Positions 52,197 to 63,795 of a DNA stretch of 64,000 nucleotides are shown here, piece after piece. Numbering within the stretch: the stretch's first letter is position 1; every line of letters starts with the position of its first letter. The stretch comes from Iamia sp. (GTDB lineage: Bacteria > Actinomycetota > Acidimicrobiia > Acidimicrobiales > Iamiaceae), in assembly GCF_035575815.1 (NCBI RefSeq), contig NZ_DATLXO010000120.1, positions 4,234 through 68,233 on the forward strand, given 5' to 3'. The notes beneath the pieces are model-generated. The model was given only the letters and a program-made list of their open reading frames with translations, was not told the DNA's origin and did no database searches. Position numbers and translations under genes: made by a program.

Positions 52197-52874
52197 TCAG
52201 GTCTCGCCGGTGCGGCGACGGTCGGCCAGTCGTGCGGCGTAGACGGCGGCTTCGGTGCGGCGGTGCATGCCGAGCTTGGCGAGGAGGTTGGAGACGTAGT
52301 TCTTCACGGTCTTCTCGGCCAGGTACATGCGGTCGCCGATCTCTCGGTTGCTGAGGCCTTCGGCCAGCAGGTCGAGGATGCGCCGCTCCTGGTCGGTGAG
52401 CCGCTCCACGTCGTTGTCCTCGGGTCGGCCCCGAAGCCGTTCGAGGACCCGGGCGGTGAGGGCGGGATCGAGCAGCGATTGGCCGGCGCCCACCCGGCGG
52501 ACGGCGTCGACGAGGTCGTTGCCCCGGATCTGCTTGAGGACGTAGCCGGCGGCGCCGGCCATGATGGCGTCGAAGAGGGCCTCATCGTCGCTGAACGAGG
52601 TGAGCATCAGGCACTGCAGCGCCGGGTTCCGGGAGCGCAGCTCTCGGCACACCTCCACGCCGTTGCCGTCGGGCAGGCGCACGTCAAGGACGGCGACGTC
52701 GGGCTTGGTGGCCGGGACTCGCCGCCGCGCCTCGTCCGCGGTGCCCGCCTCTCCCACGACCTGCAGGTCGTCCTCGACATCGAGCAGGTCCCGCACGCCG
52801 CGGCGGACGACCTCGTGGTCGTCGAGCAGGAAGACCCGCACCGGTGGACGTGCGTCGTCGCTCATGACCTCCAT
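52197..52874 (-). CDS. NarL/LuxR-family response regulator, DevR/DosR-like
   Basis: [13 protein letters not shown]...[46 protein letters not shown]...[16 protein letters not shown]...RT.AA. 225 aa (or a start at MSDDA, 52865). Confidence 0.9.
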
Positions 52875-52897
52875 CCTGGCGTCCCTACACTGAGGTC

Positions 52898-54052
52898 GTG
52901 GCCACGAGCGGAGCCGACAAGCGGCTGGAGCGGTTCCTCGACGCCGTGCTCGCCATCGGTTCGGACCTGAGCCTGCCCGTCGTGTTGCGGCGCATCGTCG
53001 GTGCGGCCGCGGCGCTGGCTGATGCCCGCTACGCCGCGCTGGGGGTGATCGGCCCGGATCGCCGTCTGGCCGAGTTCATCACCGTCGGCGCGGATCCCGA
53101 CACGGTGGAGGCCATCGGTGATCCGCCCGAGGGGCGAGGCATCCTGGGCCTGCTCATCGTGGAGCCGCGCCCGATCCGCCTGGCTGACCTGGCCGAGCAT
53201 CCCGACTCGTTCGGCTTCCCACCGGGCCACCCGCCCATGCGGTCGTTCCTTGGCGTGCCCGTCCGGGTGCGGGGCGAGGCCTTCGGCAACCTGTACCTCA
53301 CCGAGAAGGCGGGGGGCGGCGACTTCACCACCGAGGACGAGGAGCTCGTCGTGGCCCTCGCCGCTGCGGCCGGGGTGGCGGTGGAGAACGCCCGGCTGCA
53401 CGCCCGGGTGCGGGAGCTGGCGGTGGTCGAGGACCGGGAGCGCATCGCCCGAGACCTCCACGACACCGTGATCCAGCGGCTGTTCGCCACCGGCATGTCG
53501 CTTCAGGCGGCCGGCCGCCTCGCCACCGACCGCCCCGACCTGAGCGGCCGGCTGGAGCGAGCGGTGGAGGATCTCGACGCCACCATACGCGACGTCCGCT
53601 CCACCATCTTCGCCCTGCAGGAACCAACCCGGGGCCGAGGCGGCGTGCGCAGCGACGTGGCGGCCCTGATCCGCGACGCCGCCGGCAGCCTCGGCTTCGA
53701 GCCGCGCCTGCGCTTCGACGGTCCCGTCGACGCCGCCGTGCCCGAGGGCATCGCCGATCACCTGCTCGCCACCCTGCGCGAGGCGCTGGCCAACGTGGCC
53801 CGCCACGCCGACGCCTCCCATGCCGAGGTGCGGGTCGAGACCAGCGACGACGTGGTCCTGCGCGTCGCCGACGACGGGGCCGGCATCGCCGAGGCACCAC
53901 GCCCAGGCGGCCAAGGTCTGCGCAACATGGCGGATCGGGCCGACGCGCTCGGCGGCACCCTGGAGCTGCACGGCGGACCGGAGGGGCAGGGCACCGAGCT
54001 GGTGTGGCGGATCCCGCTCAACGGCGCCATCACCCACCGCTATCGAGTGTGA
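52898..54052 (+). CDS. GAF-domain sensor histidine kinase, DevS/DosS/DosT-like (soluble)
   Basis: GAF ([14 protein letters not shown]......L..F...G.........P.G.GILG.L......IRL.DL..HP.S.GFP..HPPM.SFLGVP....GE.FGNLYL). Then HisKA_3 ([16 protein letters not shown]) and HATPase (NV.RHA.A......DDG.G). No TM helices. 384 aa. Confidence 0.9.
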
Positions 54053-54071
54053 CCGGCGAGGACGCCCACCA

Positions 54072-54099
54072 GGTCCCATGAGGTAGGGACCTTGGTCCC
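54072..54099. promoter_or_regulatory. DosR-box-like palindrome cluster
   Basis: GGTCCC (54072-54077), N8, then the perfect 14-bp palindrome GGGACCTTGGTCCC (54086-54099). Compare the core GGGACTWWAGTCCC of the M. tuberculosis DevR consensus TTSGGGACTWWAGTCCCSAA. A further GGTCC...GTCC half-site pair lies at 54108-54119. Confidence 0.55.
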
Positions 54100-54176
54100 G
54101 TTGGATTGGTCCTTTGTCCTCCTGCGCCGTCGGCCGGCGAGGCGCACGATGAACGTGACAACAGGAGTTCACCTCC

Positions 54177-61933: not shown

Positions 61934-63012
61934 TTGGCGAAGCTCGATCCGTTGCGGTCGAAGTACCCGCCCGCCCGGGCGACCCGCTTGCAGCGCGGGC
62001 AGAGCTCGGTGAGGTGCGAGGCGGGCTGGGTGGTGGGGTCGAGTCGGTAGTCCTGGCCGAGCTCGGCGAGCGTCGCCTGCAGGTCGTGCACGAACACCTC
62101 CGGGGCCAACGGCTCGCCGCAGCGGGCGCAGGGCTGTCGACCCGCCCGGCTGTTGACCTCGGCGTACATCTGGATGCCGACCGAGGCGGGGCGCTGGACC
62201 ACGTGGAAGAACTTGCCGAAGGGGATGAACACCAACGACAGCACCACCGCCGCCATGTGGATGACCACGAGGAAGTCGTAGTAGGACCCCTCGAACAGGC
62301 TGGCCGAGGCGGTGAGCAACAAGCCGGTGACCGCGATCACGACCAACATCAGCAACGGCACCATGTCGTAGCCGAAGCTCTGGCCCGCGATCACGGCGCG
62401 ATCCCGGAACCGTCGCCACAGGAAGATGGCGCACCCGACGAGCACGAGCACGGCGGTGTAGTCGAGGGCGTGGAACATCGACCAACCGAAGAACGACGTG
62501 GCGTCGAAGGTGATCGTGCCCATCCCGAACACGAAGGTCCGGTACGTCTCCTCGGTGCCCGGCTCCAGCTTGAACGCCAGCCACCCGAAGACGAGCGGGA
62601 ACGTGATCAGCGTCGCCCCGATCACGCCCCAGAACAGGCACTGGTGGGCGATCCACCGCAGCACGCCGCGGCGACGGATGAACCCCTGGGCCAGGAGCTG
62701 TCCCGCCACCGCACGGGGCAACAGGGCGGGCAGCGCCCGGAAGCTGTCCCACGACCCCGCCAGCTGCCAGCCCCGTCGCCAGTACCGCCGGGTGGACGGC
62801 ATGTGGAGCCAGCGGGCGTAGCGGGCCACGATGGCATACGTCAGGGCGACGATGCCGACGGCGTAGCCGATGAGCGCCGAGTCGAAGTTCGCCAGGCCGC
62901 TCGAGCCGGCCCAGATCAGGCCGAGCAGCACGAGGGCGGCGACGCCGCCGACCACGCGCTCCCCGCCTCGCCTCGGGCGGGAGGTGGGTGTCGGCGATGT
63001 GTCGGAAGGCAT
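61930..63012 (-). CDS. six-TM NarI/DsrM/HdrE-like putative dihaem cytochrome b with Cys-rich C-terminal tail
   Basis: From ATG 63010-63012 (MPSDTSPTP). His residues in or at helices (IAHQCLFWG, SMFHALDY, VVIHMAAV, FIPFGKFFHVV, the last like the PF(S/T)(R/K)L.H of NarI-type subunits). C-terminal CARCGEP...LCPRCKR. The family call is from memory of motifs. Confidence 0.7.
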   Translation of the reverse strand: MPSDTSPTPTSRPRRGGERVVGGVAALVLLGLIWAGSSGLANFDSALIGYAVGIVALTYAIVARYARWLHMPSTRRYWRRGWQLAGSWDSFRALPALLPRAVAGQLLAQGFIRRRGVLRWIAHQCLFWGVIGATLITFPLVFGWLAFKLEPGTEETYRTFVFGMGTITFDATSFFGWSMFHALDYTAVLVLVGCAIFLWRRFRDRAVIAGQSFGYDMVPLLMLVVIAVTGLLLTASASLFEGSYYDFLVVIHMAAVVLSLVFIPFGKFFHVVQRPASVGIQMYAEVNSRAGRQPCARCGEPLAPEVFVHDLQATLAELGQDYRLDPTTQPASHLTELCPRCKRVARAGGYFDRNGSSFAK

Positions 63013-63217
63013 CACGATCCAGGCTGGCCGACGACGGGGTCCGCGGCGTCGCCTCCACCATCGCGCATCACAGAGAACCACGCCTGTCGACGGGCAGCTC
63101 GGGGAGGCGGATCCGCCGACCGGGCATGCTCGCCGGCGGGAGCCGGGCGTCTTCGTGCTCGTCGCCCACGCTCCCGGACATGCCGCGAATGGTGGTCCGG
63201 ACGGAAGAAGGCTCGAA

Positions 63218-63236
63218 AGGGTCGAAGGTCCCTGAT
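63218..63236. promoter_or_regulatory. DosR-box-like site in the divergent promoter region of the Mo operon and trHb gene
   Basis: agggtcgaaggtccctgat with core GGGTCGAAGGTCCC. It lies about 205-225 nt upstream of the cyt b start and about 150 nt upstream of the trHb start. A GTCCGGAC palindrome is at 63195-63202. Confidence 0.4.
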
Positions 63237-63381
63237 GTCTCCGCCCTTTGCCCCTACCGGCCGCCGACGGCCGGCGAGATGATCGAGGGATGACGACGCC
63301 CCGCAGACCAAGGGCGGCCGAGGATTATCACTGTCGCCACTCCAGGCCCCTGCGCTGTGGCTCGAGCGACCGGAGGACCGC

Positions 63382-63795
63382 ATGAGCCGAGAGGCGCGCC
63401 GGCCACCGCCTGTCGACGACCTCGACACGCCCGAAGAGATCGCCGAGATGGTCCGCCGGTTCTACCAGGACGTGGCCCAGGACGACCTGCTGGGCCCGCT
63501 GTTCAACGACGTGGCCCGGGTCGACTGGAGCGAGCACCTGCCGAAGCTCACCCGGTTCTGGTGTCGGGCCCTGCTCGGCATCGAGGGCTACACGGGTAAC
63601 CCGTTTCGCGCCCATGCGCTGGTCAACGAACGGTCGCCGTTCACCCTGGAGCACTTCGAGCGTTGGCTGGAGCTCTTCCACGACACTGTGGAGCTGGGCT
63701 GGGTCGGGCCCAACTCCGATCGCGCGTTGGCGCTGGCCCGGAACGTGGCCCGGGTCCACAGCAACCAGCTCGTGGGGACGCCGGTCGATGCGTGA
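63382..63795 (+). CDS. group III truncated haemoglobin
   Basis: DTPEEIAEMVRRFYQDVAQDDLLGPLFN.....DW.EHL.KLT.FWC..LLG...Y.GNPF.AH......SPFT.EHFERWLELFHDTV...W.GP....A...A. 137 aa. Paralogue of the C-terminal half of 55895-56653. Confidence 0.85.
   Translation: MSREARRPPPVDDLDTPEEIAEMVRRFYQDVAQDDLLGPLFNDVARVDWSEHLPKLTRFWCRALLGIEGYTGNPFRAHALVNERSPFTLEHFERWLELFHDTVELGWVGPNSDRALALARNVARVHSNQLVGTPVDA

What the first reader, a model, noticed from the sequence alone, without database searches (positions are those of the whole stretch)
52197..63795. An ~11.6 kb nitrogen-oxide / hypoxia island combining sensing, reduction, transport, detoxification and repair
The block groups many genes with one theme. 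It has a DosR-like regulator and a soluble GAF kinase (DosS/T-like, a class that senses O2/NO/CO through haem). It has two hemerythrin-like proteins, a HiPIP and an HMA-like CxxC protein. It has a DUF1971-trHbIII fusion, RIC/YtfE (repair of NO-damaged Fe-S clusters) and an HPP nitrite-type transporter. It also has the Nas/NarB-type molybdoenzyme complex and a second trHbIII. A third truncated haemoglobin (trHbO) lies at 6260. Each family is individually linked to nitrate, nitrite or NO biology. Finding them in one block argues for a self-contained nitrate-to-nitrite respiration and NO-protection module under hypoxia/NO control.
Basis: partly seen in the sequence, partly recalled or inferred. 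Interest (0 to 1): 0.65.

Follow-up and report, generated by a model that had tools for sequence, protein, structure and literature searches.

The report
DosR-linked nitrate reductase and NO-defence cluster
An uncultured Acidimicrobiia bacterium has placed an oxygen/NO-sensing switch next to nitric-oxide defence genes and an unusual membrane-anchored, nitrate-reductase-like enzyme; that enzyme is widespread in soil bacteria and is routinely labelled as an ordinary assimilatory enzyme.

Summary
The gene block is real. They include a full-length DevR/DosR orthologue, a DosT/DevS-type haem-GAF kinase (one GAF only), RIC, HPP, a DUF1971-trHbIII fusion, a second trHbIII and a distant trHbO. The two "hemerythrin-like" proteins are not hemerythrins. 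HiPIP-like and HMA-like are weak calls.

The molybdoenzyme is not an ordinary Nas/NarB. It is a tightly coupled six-gene operon: NarI-like cytochrome b, Nas-type MopB with a Cys-Met active site, four-cluster ferredoxin, Tat-anchored bc1/Aio-type Rieske protein, small 2-TM protein and HPP. The first five genes recur in the same order across several phyla, and HPP follows in 12 of 27 module-anchored loci. Neighbours are enriched for RIC, hemerythrin, NnrS, Crp/Fnr and NrfH-like genes.

The only published look-alike is NaoABC, claimed to be an Sb(III) oxidase.

The 11.6 kb island is not conserved as a unit in about 150 related loci. Only sub-blocks recur.

DosR-box-like sites lie in three intergenic regions of the island, which suggests hypoxia/NO control in this genome only.

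The enzyme module is the interesting part.

The parts
52197..52874 (-). DevR/DosR-orthologous response regulator (REC + GerE/LuxR HTH); an alternative start at 52864 gives 222 aa
   Evidence: Pfam. 271 bits to Mtb DevR 3C3W over residues 12-223. Phospho-acceptor region [15 protein letters not shown] and recognition helix EKTVKNYVS are identical. Gene call on the Logan contig.
52898..54052 (+). Soluble DosT/DevS-like haem-GAF histidine kinase with a single GAF (no GAF-B), then HisKA_3 and HATPase_c
   Evidence: Pfam. GAF is 182 bits to DosT GAF-A 2VZW and 166-169 bits to DevS GAF-A. GHPPMR (proximal His) and NLYLTEK (distal Tyr) are kept. No hydrophobic segment.
54086..54099 (.). Perfect palindrome GGGACCTTGGTCCC, a DosR-box-like site 34 bp after the kinase stop and about 250 bp upstream of sm1
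   Evidence: It is the only site in 64 kb within 2 mismatches of the literature core GGGACTWWAGTCCC (consensus from PMC2275270).
   Evidence: Seven homologues at 40-100% identity, none annotated. AF2 pLDDT 78, four helices. No significant fold match. One invariant His.
   Evidence: BLASTP against sm1 E=6e-4. jackhmmer links the two. P0247 is an sm1/sm2 chimera. The + strand ORF is called at the end of the Logan contig.
55230..55421 (-). 63-aa HiPIP-like four-Cys protein without a signal peptide
   Evidence: Pfam HIPIP 16.1 bits against a cutoff of 22. PDB top hits are all HiPIPs with the four Cys aligned, E about 0.03. Homologues only in L013 and L018.
55494..55838 (-). HMA-like CxxC (CSWC) protein, a recurrent partner of the fusion gene
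   Evidence: Pfam HMA 15 bits. 2ROE E=0.076 with CxxC aligned. 27 homologues in related loci; directly downstream of the fusion gene in 10 of 54.
55895..56653 (-). DUF1971 (YeaR/TehB-N cupin) fused to a group III truncated haemoglobin, 252 aa; its start overlaps the RIC stop by 1 nt
   Evidence: Pfam DUF1971 50 bits. 2IG3, 3DL3 and 3BB6 hits. 309 homologues; the named hits and 61 of 64 genome loci are Acidimicrobiia or other Actinomycetota. TGATG junction.
56653..57354 (-). RIC / YtfE / ScdA-type di-iron repair protein (alternative start 57318)
   Evidence: ScdA_N + Hemerythrin. TIGR03652 206.4 bits against a cutoff of 204.7.
57383..57396 (.). DosR-box-like half-palindrome GGGCTGAAGGTCCC, 30-80 bp upstream of RIC; shares the exact 13-mer GAAGGTCCCTGAT with the site at 63219
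57669..58277 (-). HPP-family membrane protein (nitrite-transporter family), last gene of the Mo operon
   Evidence: Pfam TM_HPP 84 bits. GTGA overlap with the preceding gene. Same position in the P0034 and P0082 contexts and in 12 of 27 module-anchored metagenome loci.
58274..58609 (-). 111-aa two-TM protein (weak DUF6755), fifth conserved subunit of the module
   Evidence: Follows the Rieske gene in 26 of 27 complete modules.
58609..59133 (-). Rieske [2Fe-2S] subunit with a conserved twin-arginine motif plus TM anchor and bc1/Aio-type boxes CTHLAC / CPCHDG
   Evidence: Pfam. NCBIfam QcrA and AioB-like hits. TRRGYLK + TM; a [ST]RR motif is present in all 22 genome-locus rows and visible in nearly all metagenome orthologues. 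Boxes.
59130..59702 (-). Four-cluster [4Fe-4S] ferredoxin subunit (FdnH/HybA/DmsB-like), no TM segment, no signal
   Evidence: Fer4_11 68.7 bits. NCBIfam hits. 15 Cys at >=95% conservation (the 16th is present in the window but below the threshold). No hydrophobic segment.
59699..61933 (-). Nas-type molybdopterin catalytic subunit, 744 aa, with FS0 Cys motif and Mo-ligand motif DYNGRMCMVSAG; no Tat signal
   Evidence: Pfam. NasC model 763 bits (cutoff 1100), Fdh-alpha 595, NapA 234, NarG 62. Motif invariant. N-terminus.
61930..63012 (-). Six-TM NarI/DsrM/TmcC-like membrane subunit (probable di-haem b) with a cytoplasmic C-terminal CxxC...CPxC motif; alternative start 62955
   Evidence: Weak Nitrate_red_gam hit and TmcC/QmoC/HmcE hits. 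His123, His252 and His270 are invariant and His181 is conserved in close orthologues. PFGKFFH motif, Cys295/298/341 invariant, Cys338 nearly so.
63219..63232 (.). DosR-box-like site GGGTCGAAGGTCCC in the divergent promoter region between the Mo operon and trHbIII
63382..63795 (+). Stand-alone group III truncated haemoglobin
   Evidence: Bac_globin 23.7 bits against a cutoff of 21. Ctb 2IG3 E=2.5e-15 with the proximal His, Tyr B10 and Trp G8 positions aligned.

Best explanation
The block is a lineage-specific assembly of four modules that work on nitrate, nitrite and NO. In this genome it is probably wired to a DosR-type hypoxia/NO switch.

(1) Sensing. The kinase's haem-GAF domain senses loss of O2 or binding of NO/CO. 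The kinase phosphorylates the DevR orthologue.

(2) Regulation. The regulator binds GGGNNNWWGGTCCC boxes in three intergenic regions: ahead of sm1/sm2, ahead of the RIC operon, and between the Mo operon and trHbIII.

(3) Enzyme. The six-gene operon makes a membrane-anchored, menaquinol-linked enzyme. A NarI-like di-haem cytochrome b takes electrons from quinol. A Tat-inserted Rieske protein and a four-cluster ferredoxin relay them. A Nas-type Mo-bisMGD subunit with a Cys-Met active site reduces nitrate to nitrite. The HPP protein moves nitrite (or nitrate/nitrite) across the membrane.

(4) Defence. NO arising from nitrite is handled by the two group III truncated globins, one fused to a YeaR-type cupin. 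RIC repairs damaged Fe-S centres. The HMA-like and HiPIP-like proteins are accessory.

Shown here: family identities, operon coupling, conservation of the module, and its neighbourhood enrichment.

Inferred: the substrate, the direction of electron flow, which side of the membrane the catalytic subunit faces, and regulation by the DevR orthologue.
For: - Sensor and regulator identity.
- Boxes: the pattern occurs at only three places in 64 kb, all in island intergenic regions (0.31 expected, 0 of 100 shuffles reach the count). Two of the sites share an exact 13-mer. The core matches the published DosR consensus spacing.
- Operon: 1-4 nt start/stop overlaps through all six genes, and between RIC and the fusion gene.
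- Catalytic subunit: best family model is NasC (763 bits). The NGRxCM motif is invariant, against CH in formate dehydrogenases.
- Electron-transfer chain: conserved His and Cys ligand sets.
- Module conservation: same gene order in Acidimicrobiia, Kitasatospora and Pyrinomonadaceae. In 80 metagenome loci, MopB follows in 38 of 40 and the full set in 27 of 28.
- Unbiased neighbourhood: HPP follows in 12 of 27, and RIC lies just upstream in 14 of 50. Of 215 flanking ORFs, 26 are Hemerythrin, 14 ScdA_N, 8 cNMP_binding/Crp, 5 NnrS, 5 DUF1858, 4 COX1, and some are NrfH-like cytochromes. NrfAH is adjacent in L006.
- Fusion-anchored loci: RIC in 16 of 24, the Mo module in 10 of 24, trHbIII in 8 of 24.
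- From general knowledge, not tested here: ytfE and yeaR are NsrR/NarL-controlled in E. coli; Ctb is NssR-controlled in C. jejuni; the Mtb DosR regulon includes narK2.
Against: - There are no activity or expression data.
- The box pattern was derived post hoc. By the a-priori literature core only one site passes, and 20 of 100 shuffles do as well.
- The box is absent upstream of the module in five relatives.
- The whole island is found in no relative.
- The same three-subunit architecture was reported as an Sb(III) oxidase (PMC11521347).
- The Rieske protein is Tat-targeted while MopB has no signal, so the topology is unresolved.
- The role of a Rieske centre in a reductase is unexplained.
- The catalytic subunit scores below the NasC and Fdh-alpha curated cutoffs.
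Confidence: 0.5

Rival explanations
1. The Mo module is an orthologue of NaoABC, an anaerobic antimonite (or arsenite) oxidase that feeds electrons into the quinone pool. The nitrogen-oxide genes nearby reflect coupling to a separate nitrate reductase elsewhere in the genome.
For: Same subunit set and order (NapA/Nas-like MopB, 4Fe-4S protein, Rieske protein with an N-terminal TM helix). Heterologous expression was reported to raise Sb(V) and 13C fixation (PMC11521347). The Rieske protein is of the Aio/bc1 type and Tat-targeted, as in arsenite oxidase. The ferredoxin's best models are the periplasmic FdnH and HybA. One context has an ars-like cluster 3-6 kb away.
Against: No ArsB/Acr3/ArsC families appear among the most frequent families of 215 flanking ORFs, only two ArsR-type HTH proteins. 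Nitrite and NO genes are enriched directly next to the module. The active site is Cys-Met, as in nitrate reductases. The Nao tree contained no Nas/NarB sequences, and the reported Sb(V) yields were micromolar. Nao sequences are not deposited, so orthology is unproven.
Confidence: 0.12
2. The Mo enzyme is an ordinary assimilatory nitrate reductase, as pipelines label it, with unusual but soluble-type electron donors. The block serves nitrogen nutrition.
For: JGI names it 'assimilatory nitrate reductase catalytic subunit'. NasC is the best model. MopB has no signal peptide. HPP-family proteins are linked to nitrite uptake for assimilation in plastids and cyanobacteria (general knowledge).
Against: The score is below the NasC cutoff. 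The obligatory partners are a multi-TM cytochrome-b-like protein, a Tat-anchored Rieske protein and a four-cluster ferredoxin. Neither nirBD/nirA nor glutamine synthetase is among the 25 most frequent families of either batch of neighbours. The neighbours are stress and dissimilatory genes instead.
Confidence: 0.12
3. The 11.6 kb block is a chance juxtaposition in a flexible genome region. The DosR pair and sm1/sm2 regulate other targets, and the Mo operon and the RIC operon are independent units.
For: The island is not syntenic with the closest relatives. Toxin-antitoxin genes and lower G+C lie around it. The DosR pair accompanies the block only once, in L004 about 8 kb downstream. The a-priori motif statistics are weak. 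The box is missing in relatives.
Against: Three box-like sites fall exactly in the three main intergenic regions and nowhere else in 64 kb. Two share a 13-mer. Pairwise linkages (module-HPP, module-RIC, fusion-RIC, fusion-HMA-like, fusion-module) recur far above chance.
Confidence: 0.2

Closest known systems
Mycobacterium tuberculosis DosR(DevR)/DosS/DosT dormancy system
   Same: The regulator aligns with DevR over its full length (271 bits) with an identical recognition helix. The kinase GAF matches the haem-binding GAF-A of DosT/DevS, with the proximal His and distal Tyr kept. There is a palindromic GGGAC..GTCCC-type box with the same spacing. A link to nitrate metabolism also exists in Mtb (narK2, general knowledge).
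   Different: The kinase has one GAF instead of GAF-A plus GAF-B (384 aa against about 575). The regulator and kinase are divergently transcribed, 23-33 bp apart. The target genes differ. Two of the three boxes are half-sites. Nothing is tested experimentally.
NaoABC, proposed nitrate-dependent Sb(III) oxidase of a Symbiobacteriaceae MAG (PMC11521347)
   Same: Catalytic MopB near Nap/Nas, followed by a 4Fe-4S subunit and a Rieske subunit with an N-terminal TM helix. Hypothetical ORFs sit in the cluster.
   Different: The function claimed there is oxidation of Sb(III). Here the neighbours point to nitrate, nitrite and NO. Here a NarI-like membrane subunit, a 2-TM protein and often HPP or RIC belong to the unit. 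No Nao sequence is available for comparison.
Assimilatory nitrate reductases NasC/NasA/NarB
   Same: Same MopB clade (best NCBIfam model). FS0 cluster motif. Cys ligand followed by Met. No signal peptide.
   Different: Below the equivalog cutoff (763 against 1100 bits). The partners are membrane and Fe-S subunits instead of NAD(P)H, ferredoxin or flavodoxin donors. No nitrite reductase genes are adjacent.
Respiratory nitrate reductase NarGHI
   Same: Same logic: a membrane b-type cytochrome of the NarI superfamily, a four-cluster Fe-S subunit and a Mo-bisMGD subunit. Regulated with hypoxia in actinobacteria.
   Different: The catalytic subunit is not NarG (62 bits against a cutoff of 1084; Cys rather than Asp ligand; 744 against about 1200 aa). 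There is an extra Rieske protein and 2-TM subunit. No NarJ.
Arsenite oxidase AioAB and haloarchaeal pNar with Rieske/cytochrome b (NarB/NarC)
   Same: A Tat-anchored bc1-type Rieske protein is paired with a signal-less molybdoenzyme (Aio). A Rieske protein is associated with a nitrate reductase (haloarchaea).
   Different: The MopB is not AioA (181.8 bits against a cutoff of 359.05) and has a Cys ligand. The membrane partner is NarI-like, not cytochrome b of the bc type.
NO-stress regulons: E. coli NsrR (ytfE, yeaR-yoaG, hmp) and C. jejuni NssR (cgb, ctb)
   Same: The same protein families (RIC, DUF1971/YeaR, truncated globin III) are grouped around nitrosative stress.
   Different: Here YeaR-like and Ctb-like domains are fused into one protein. 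Apart from three outlying loci, the fusion is found only in Acidimicrobiia and other Actinomycetota. The candidate regulator is DosR-type, not Rrf2 or Crp.

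Membership tests
DosR/DevR-DosS/DosT two-component system | NarL-type regulator orthologous to DevR, including the DNA-recognition helix and phospho-acceptor site | tested here: met
   271 bits over residues 12-223. The next best hit, VraR, scores 165. EKTVKNYVS and [15 protein letters not shown] are identical.
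DosR/DevR-DosS/DosT two-component system | Kinase with a haem-binding GAF-A (proximal His, distal Tyr) | tested here: met
   182 bits to DosT GAF-A 2VZW. GHPPMR and NLYLTEK align to the DevS/DosT haem-pocket residues.
DosR/DevR-DosS/DosT two-component system | Tandem GAF-A/GAF-B sensor architecture | tested here: not met
   one GAF (residues 24-163) followed directly by HisKA_3; 384 aa.
DosR/DevR-DosS/DosT two-component system | DosR boxes upstream of regulated genes | tested here: inconclusive
   Three sites by the derived pattern. Only one by the literature core at up to 2 mismatches, where 20 of 100 shuffles match. Not conserved upstream of the module in relatives.
DosR/DevR-DosS/DosT two-component system | Haem binding and response to O2/NO/CO | not testable with these tools
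   Needs spectroscopy and autophosphorylation assays.
RIC (YtfE/ScdA) | ScdA_N plus hemerythrin di-iron domain; equivalog model above cutoff | tested here: met
   TIGR03652 206.4 bits against a cutoff of 204.7.
Group III truncated haemoglobin (trHbP/Ctb) | Homology to Ctb with the proximal His, Tyr B10 and Trp G8 | tested here: met
   2IG3 is the best PDB hit for both proteins. The His in K(K/A/N)H, the Y in F/QY, and the W in (I/R)WL all align.
Hemerythrin (for sm1/sm2) | HHE domain with about five His and two carboxylate iron ligands | tested here: not met
   No Pfam or NCBIfam hit at E up to 10. One invariant His. Foldseek gives no hit at E<=0.001, and a hemerythrin appears only at rank 34 among generic helix bundles.
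HiPIP | Four-Cys [4Fe-4S] pattern and a family HMM match | tested here: inconclusive
   Cys spacing fits and aligns to 1HIP and 1HPI. Pfam gives 16.1 bits against a cutoff of 22. There is no signal peptide.
HMA | Ferredoxin-like fold with an N-terminal CxxC | tested here: inconclusive
   15 bits against a cutoff of 24.8. 2ROE E=0.076 with the CxxC aligned.
HPP family | TM_HPP domain | tested here: met
   84.4 bits against a cutoff of 27.2. Nitrite transport itself is not testable here.
Assimilatory nitrate reductase NasC/NarB | Catalytic subunit reaches the curated equivalog score | tested here: not met
   763 bits against a cutoff of 1100. The haloarchaeal NasA model gives 434 against 1000.
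Assimilatory nitrate reductase NasC/NarB | FS0 cluster and Cys Mo-ligand in a nitrate-reductase-type (C-M) context | tested here: met
   THCxxCxxxCG...LCPKG, and NGRxCM in 56 of the 72 metagenome ORFs searched (no variant seen; the rest gave no match).
Assimilatory nitrate reductase NasC/NarB | Soluble donor partners and linkage to assimilatory nitrite reductase | tested here: not met
   The partners are a cytochrome-b-like protein, a Rieske protein and a ferredoxin. nirBD/nirA are not among the frequent neighbour families.
NarGHI | NarG-type catalytic subunit | tested here: not met
   narG model 62 bits against a cutoff of 1084.
NarGHI | NarI-type di-haem b membrane subunit | tested here: inconclusive
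   Nitrate_red_gam 19.7 bits against a cutoff of 22.9. Three invariant His plus one conserved His, two of them 18 residues apart on the last TM segment.
NaoABC | MopB, 4Fe-4S protein and Rieske protein with an N-terminal TM helix, in this gene order | tested here: met
   compared with the description in PMC11521347.
NaoABC | Sequence orthology to NaoA/B/C and Sb(III) oxidase activity | not testable with these tools
   Only reads are deposited. The supplement gives gene lengths and primers only.
Arsenite oxidase AioAB | AioA-type large subunit | tested here: not met
   TIGR02693 181.8 bits against a cutoff of 359.05. A Cys ligand is present.

The most novel reading that the evidence does not exclude
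The conserved five-to-six-gene operon encodes a fourth architectural type of prokaryotic nitrate reductase, beside Nar, Nap and Nas. The operon comprises a NarI-like cytochrome b, a Nas-type MopB, a four-cluster ferredoxin, a Tat-anchored Rieske protein and a 2-TM protein, with or without HPP. In this reading a Nas-type catalytic subunit is wired to the menaquinol pool through a cytochrome b plus Rieske module. The enzyme is widespread in soil Actinomycetota, Acidobacteriota, Chloroflexota and Gemmatimonadota. It is systematically counted as 'assimilatory nasA' in metagenomes. It is the same family as the published 'NaoABC antimonite oxidase'.
Probability: 0.35. Interest if true: 0.85.

Novelty: new variant of a known kind. 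Interest (0 to 1): 0.62.

Why it matters
If the module is a quinol-linked nitrate reductase, two things follow. First, many soil and sediment bacteria that appear to lack Nar and Nap could still carry out dissimilatory nitrate reduction.

It would also call for a re-examination of the NaoABC antimonite-oxidase assignment.

The window adds a concrete, testable regulatory hypothesis. A minimal single-GAF DosT-like kinase and a DevR orthologue lie outside the mycobacteria and streptomycetes, with three candidate boxes placed in front of nitrate, nitrite and NO genes.

The DUF1971-trHbIII fusion ties two proteins of poorly understood function (YeaR, Ctb) to one task.

Tried and rejected
- **Whole-island synteny.** I ran tblastn and tblastx of all island proteins against 74 related loci. 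The island is conserved as a unit in none of them.
- **Hemerythrin assignment of sm1/sm2.** Rejected after Pfam and NCBIfam at E up to 10, an alignment, AF2 and Foldseek.
- **Minus-strand ORFs 54694-55125 and 52862-54349.** Considered as alternatives to sm2 and the kinase. Rejected: they have no homologues or domains, and the plus-strand ORFs have both.
- **Formate dehydrogenase reading of the MopB.** The top PDB hits are FdhF-type, but the Fdh C-H motif is replaced by C-M, and the NasC model scores higher.
- **Tat signal on MopB.** Absent; 1 of 49 visible N-termini has a Tat-like motif.
- **DosR box upstream of the module in relatives.** Not found.
- **First motif pattern.** It had the wrong spacing and gave 0 hits.
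- **Sigma-70 promoter and terminator scans.** Uninformative in this high-G+C DNA.
- **Literature searches.** Searches for the module (Rieske + Nas, DUF6755, HPP + molybdopterin) found nothing except the Nao paper.
- **Nao sequences.** I tried to obtain them from the paper's supplement. Only primers and gene lengths are given, and the C-terminal peptides implied by the primers were not informative.
- **tRNA or mobile-element borders.** None found for the island. The only tRNA is at 5387-5471.

Full report
**Source and gene map.** The window has 72% G+C. The closest homologues of its proteins come from Acidimicrobiia metagenome-assembled genomes. Only two short Logan contigs from run SRR7741809 carry identical genes. 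I called genes by third-position G+C together with domain hits. The map is as follows.

| Coordinates | Strand | Gene |
|---|---|---|
| 52197-52874 | - | response regulator |
| 52898-54052 | + | GAF kinase |
| 54348-54746 | + | sm1 |
| 54805-55314 | + | sm2 |
| 55230-55421 | - | HiPIP-like |
| 55494-55838 | - | HMA-like |
| 55895-56653 | - | DUF1971-globin fusion |
| 56653-57354 | - | RIC |
| 57669-58277 | - | HPP |
| 58274-58609 | - | 2-TM protein |
| 58609-59133 | - | Rieske protein |
| 59130-59702 | - | four-cluster ferredoxin |
| 59699-61933 | - | MopB |
| 61930-63012 | - | membrane subunit |
| 63382-63795 | + | globin |

The six genes from the membrane subunit to HPP overlap by 1-4 nt at every junction. 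RIC and the fusion gene overlap by 1 nt. There are therefore two tight operons on the minus strand, separated by a gap of about 314 bp.

**Checking the observation.**
- The regulator is an orthologue of M. tuberculosis DevR. It scores 271 bits over the whole protein, against 165 for the next hit. The phospho-acceptor region and the recognition helix EKTVKNYVS are identical.
- The kinase GAF matches the haem-binding GAF-A of DosT (182 bits) and DevS. The residues aligned to the proximal His and the distal Tyr are kept.
- The kinase has one GAF rather than two, and it has no membrane segment.
- RIC passes its curated equivalog cutoff.
- HPP is clear.
- Both globins have C. jejuni Ctb as their best solved relative. 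They are 44% identical to each other.
- The N-terminal half of the fusion matches YeaR and the TehB N-domain.
- The globin at 6260 is a group II trHbO.
- The HiPIP-like and HMA-like calls stay below family thresholds, although the Cys ligands align.
- The two 'hemerythrin-like' proteins are real and paralogous. They are not hemerythrins. They have no domain hit and one invariant His. The predicted four-helix bundle has no significant structural neighbour.

**The molybdoenzyme.**
- *Catalytic subunit.* It fits the NasC model best (763 bits), ahead of Fdh-alpha (595), NapA (234) and NarG (62). It falls below every curated cutoff.
- It carries the FS0 cluster motif. The invariant sequence DYNGRxCMVSAG gives a Cys-Met active site, where formate dehydrogenases have Cys/Sec-His.
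- It has no Tat signal.
- *Partners.* They are not those of an assimilatory enzyme.
- The ferredoxin has 16 Cys, enough for four clusters (15 pass the >=95% conservation threshold).
- The Rieske protein has the bc1/Aio-type boxes CTHL[AG]C and CPCH. A twin-arginine motif followed by a TM helix is conserved in the orthologues examined.
- The membrane subunit has six TM segments, and its loop charges indicate that both ends are cytoplasmic.
- It has three invariant His and one further conserved His. Two of these lie 18 residues apart on the last helix, as I recall for NarI (not checked here).
- It also has a PFGKxFH motif and a cytoplasmic CxxC...CPxC motif.
- *What these features imply.* They describe an electron path from quinol through haems b and Fe-S centres to molybdenum.
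- *Open question: topology.* The Tat-anchored Rieske domain with its disulfide-type boxes should face outward. The signal-less Nas-type subunit, the cytoplasmic Cys4 domain and the coupled HPP transporter argue for a cytoplasmic active site. Co-export with the Rieske protein, as in arsenite oxidase, cannot be excluded.

**Conservation of the module.** The order membrane subunit-MopB-ferredoxin-Rieske-small protein is the same in several lineages:
- other Acidimicrobiia (77-90% MopB identity);
- a Kitasatospora genome (57%);
- a Pyrinomonadaceae acidobacterium (57%), where NrfA, NrfH, RIC, a hemerythrin and an MFS transporter are adjacent;
- two further contexts in which HPP follows exactly as in the window.

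The membrane subunit has 879 representatives at 50% clustering with E<=1e-3. A scan anchored on it found at least 591 stretches in JGI metagenomes.

In the 80 loci kept from that scan:
- MopB follows in 38 of 40.
- The full Fe-S set follows in 27 of 28.
- The 2-TM protein follows in 26 of 27.
- HPP follows in 12 of 27.
- RIC sits just upstream on the same strand in 14 of 50.
- Where both flanks are visible (n=22): HPP only 10, RIC only 6, both 0, neither 6.

A Pfam scan of 215 flanking ORFs gave these most frequent families: Hemerythrin 26, ScdA_N 14, cNMP_binding 8 with Crp HTH 6, DUF1858 5, NnrS 5, MFS 5, COX1 4, SLAC1 3, NrfH/multihaem cytochromes 2-3, Rrf2 2, ArsR-type HTH 2. No arsenic or antimony pump or reductase appears among them. 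This sample was chosen without reference to any nitrogen gene, so it is the strongest argument that the enzyme works on nitrate or nitrite.

**Literature.** I found no description of this complex as a nitrate reductase. One paper (PMC11521347) describes 'NaoABC' from a Symbiobacteriaceae MAG. It has a MopB nearest NapA, a 4Fe-4S subunit and a Rieske subunit with an N-terminal TM helix, and it is assigned to nitrate-dependent Sb(III) oxidation after expression in R. palustris. Its reference tree contained no Nas/NarB sequences. The sequences are not deposited, so orthology cannot be tested here. I keep this as a rival.

**Is the island a unit?** No.
- The closest relatives share only the Mo operon and HPP, with HPP in another position and orientation.
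- A scan with the fusion protein gave 64 genome loci, almost all Acidimicrobiia.
- None of them has the window's arrangement.
- Sub-blocks do recur. With at least 8 kb on both sides (n=24), RIC is present in 16, the Mo module (a 55%-identity subclade) in 10, a stand-alone trHbIII in 8, and at least one of these in 17.
- The HMA-like gene lies directly downstream of the fusion gene in 10 of 54.
- The DosR pair is near the module only in L004.
- HiPIP-like occurs in two loci and sm1 in a few.
- The left flank holds unrelated genes: a MenD-like TPP enzyme, a hydrolase and toxin-antitoxin genes.

**Regulation.**
- The pattern GGGNNNWWGGTCCC occurs at three places in the 64 kb window: 54086 (a perfect palindrome), 57383 and 63219.
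- All three lie in the island's main intergenic regions. The expected count is 0.31, and 0 of 100 shuffles reach the observed count.
- The last two sites share the exact 13-mer GAAGGTCCCTGAT.
- The core has the spacing of the published DosR consensus TTSGGGACTWWAGTCCCSAA.
- Caveat: the pattern was derived from these sites.
- Caveat: with the literature core at up to 2 mismatches, only 54086 is found, and 20% of shuffles do as well.
- Caveat: no box precedes the module in five relatives.
- Similar boxes are about three times over-represented in the related Acidimicrobiia loci (15 against about 4.7 expected).
- Control by the DevR orthologue is therefore a reasonable hypothesis, specific to this genome. 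It is not a finding.

**Verdict.** The functional theme is supported by independent neighbourhood statistics. The 'self-contained conserved island' is not supported. The interesting element is the molybdoenzyme module. It is most likely a menaquinol-linked, Nas-type nitrate reductase of an architecture not described as such, and a competing published assignment remains to be resolved.

Noticed in passing
window 58609-59133 (Rieske N-terminus); L006-L066, L088-L118: Ahead of the twin-arginine motif, the Rieske subunit carries a conserved cytoplasmic motif W-[RK]-x-[DE]-F-P-[YH] in the roughly 55%-identity subclade and in the metagenome orthologues. The window's own clade has a different conserved segment, PPDxxLVxERxxRLTTDxLV. 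This is unusual conservation for a Tat n-region. It may be a chaperone-binding or docking peptide.
   Followed up: partly
L075-L154 compared with window 56653-58277: Next to the Mo module, HPP and RIC are mutually exclusive in metagenome loci (10 HPP only, 6 RIC only, 0 both). The window has both, in tandem.
   Followed up: partly
window 52864/52874 to 52898: The DevR orthologue and its kinase are divergently transcribed, with only 23-33 bp between their start codons. Their promoters must lie inside each other's coding regions, or the mRNAs are leaderless. In mycobacteria, as I recall, dosR and dosS are co-oriented.
   Followed up: no
P0247 compared with window 54348-55314: A 175-aa protein from another contig joins the N-terminus of sm1 to the body of sm2. 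This suggests recombination between the tandem paralogues.
   Followed up: no
P0253, P0293, P0304, P0372: Some homologues of the membrane subunit form the C-terminal part of 750-830 aa proteins. They are fused to an unidentified N-terminal domain of 400-550 aa.
   Followed up: no
window 43000-48700; 45943-46453; about 52030-52134: The stretch left of the island has lower G+C (0.68-0.70) and weak coding signal. It holds a MazF/PemK toxin with a small upstream ORF and a truncated BKACE fragment (46787-47221, profile positions 173-256 of 274 only). A 34-aa VapB-antitoxin-like ORF sits just before the regulator. This looks like a flexible genome region.
   Followed up: partly
window 48787-51435: The long minus-strand ORF (865 aa) is a MenD-like TPP enzyme only in its C-terminal 575 or so residues. 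An alpha/beta-hydrolase gene (50653-51435, +) occupies the opposite strand of its apparent N-terminus. A UbiE/MenG-type methyltransferase lies at 42091-42897. These may be menaquinone biosynthesis genes near a menaquinol-dependent enzyme.
   Followed up: partly
L071 5199-10759; L072 10001-11283: Elsewhere, the DUF1971-trHbIII fusion gene lies next to a 1073-aa molybdopterin enzyme and a SLAC1/TehA-type anion channel (L071), or next to an alternative oxidase (L072).
   Followed up: no
context of P0034: One module context also carries Moco biosynthesis genes (MoeA, MobA-like, MoaC). An ars-like cluster (LMWPc, MIP channel, glyoxalase, ArsR) lies 3-6 kb downstream. This is the only metalloid link seen.
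   Followed up: no
window 5387-6697: The trHbO gene (6260-6697) is immediately followed by an AhpC/TSA peroxiredoxin (5735-6205) and lies next to the only tRNA in the window (tRNA-Leu CAA, 5387-5471).
   Followed up: partly
window 54965-54978: A fourth DosR-box-like sequence, GGGATCAAGGTCCG (12 of 14 positions), lies inside the sm2 coding region.
   Followed up: no
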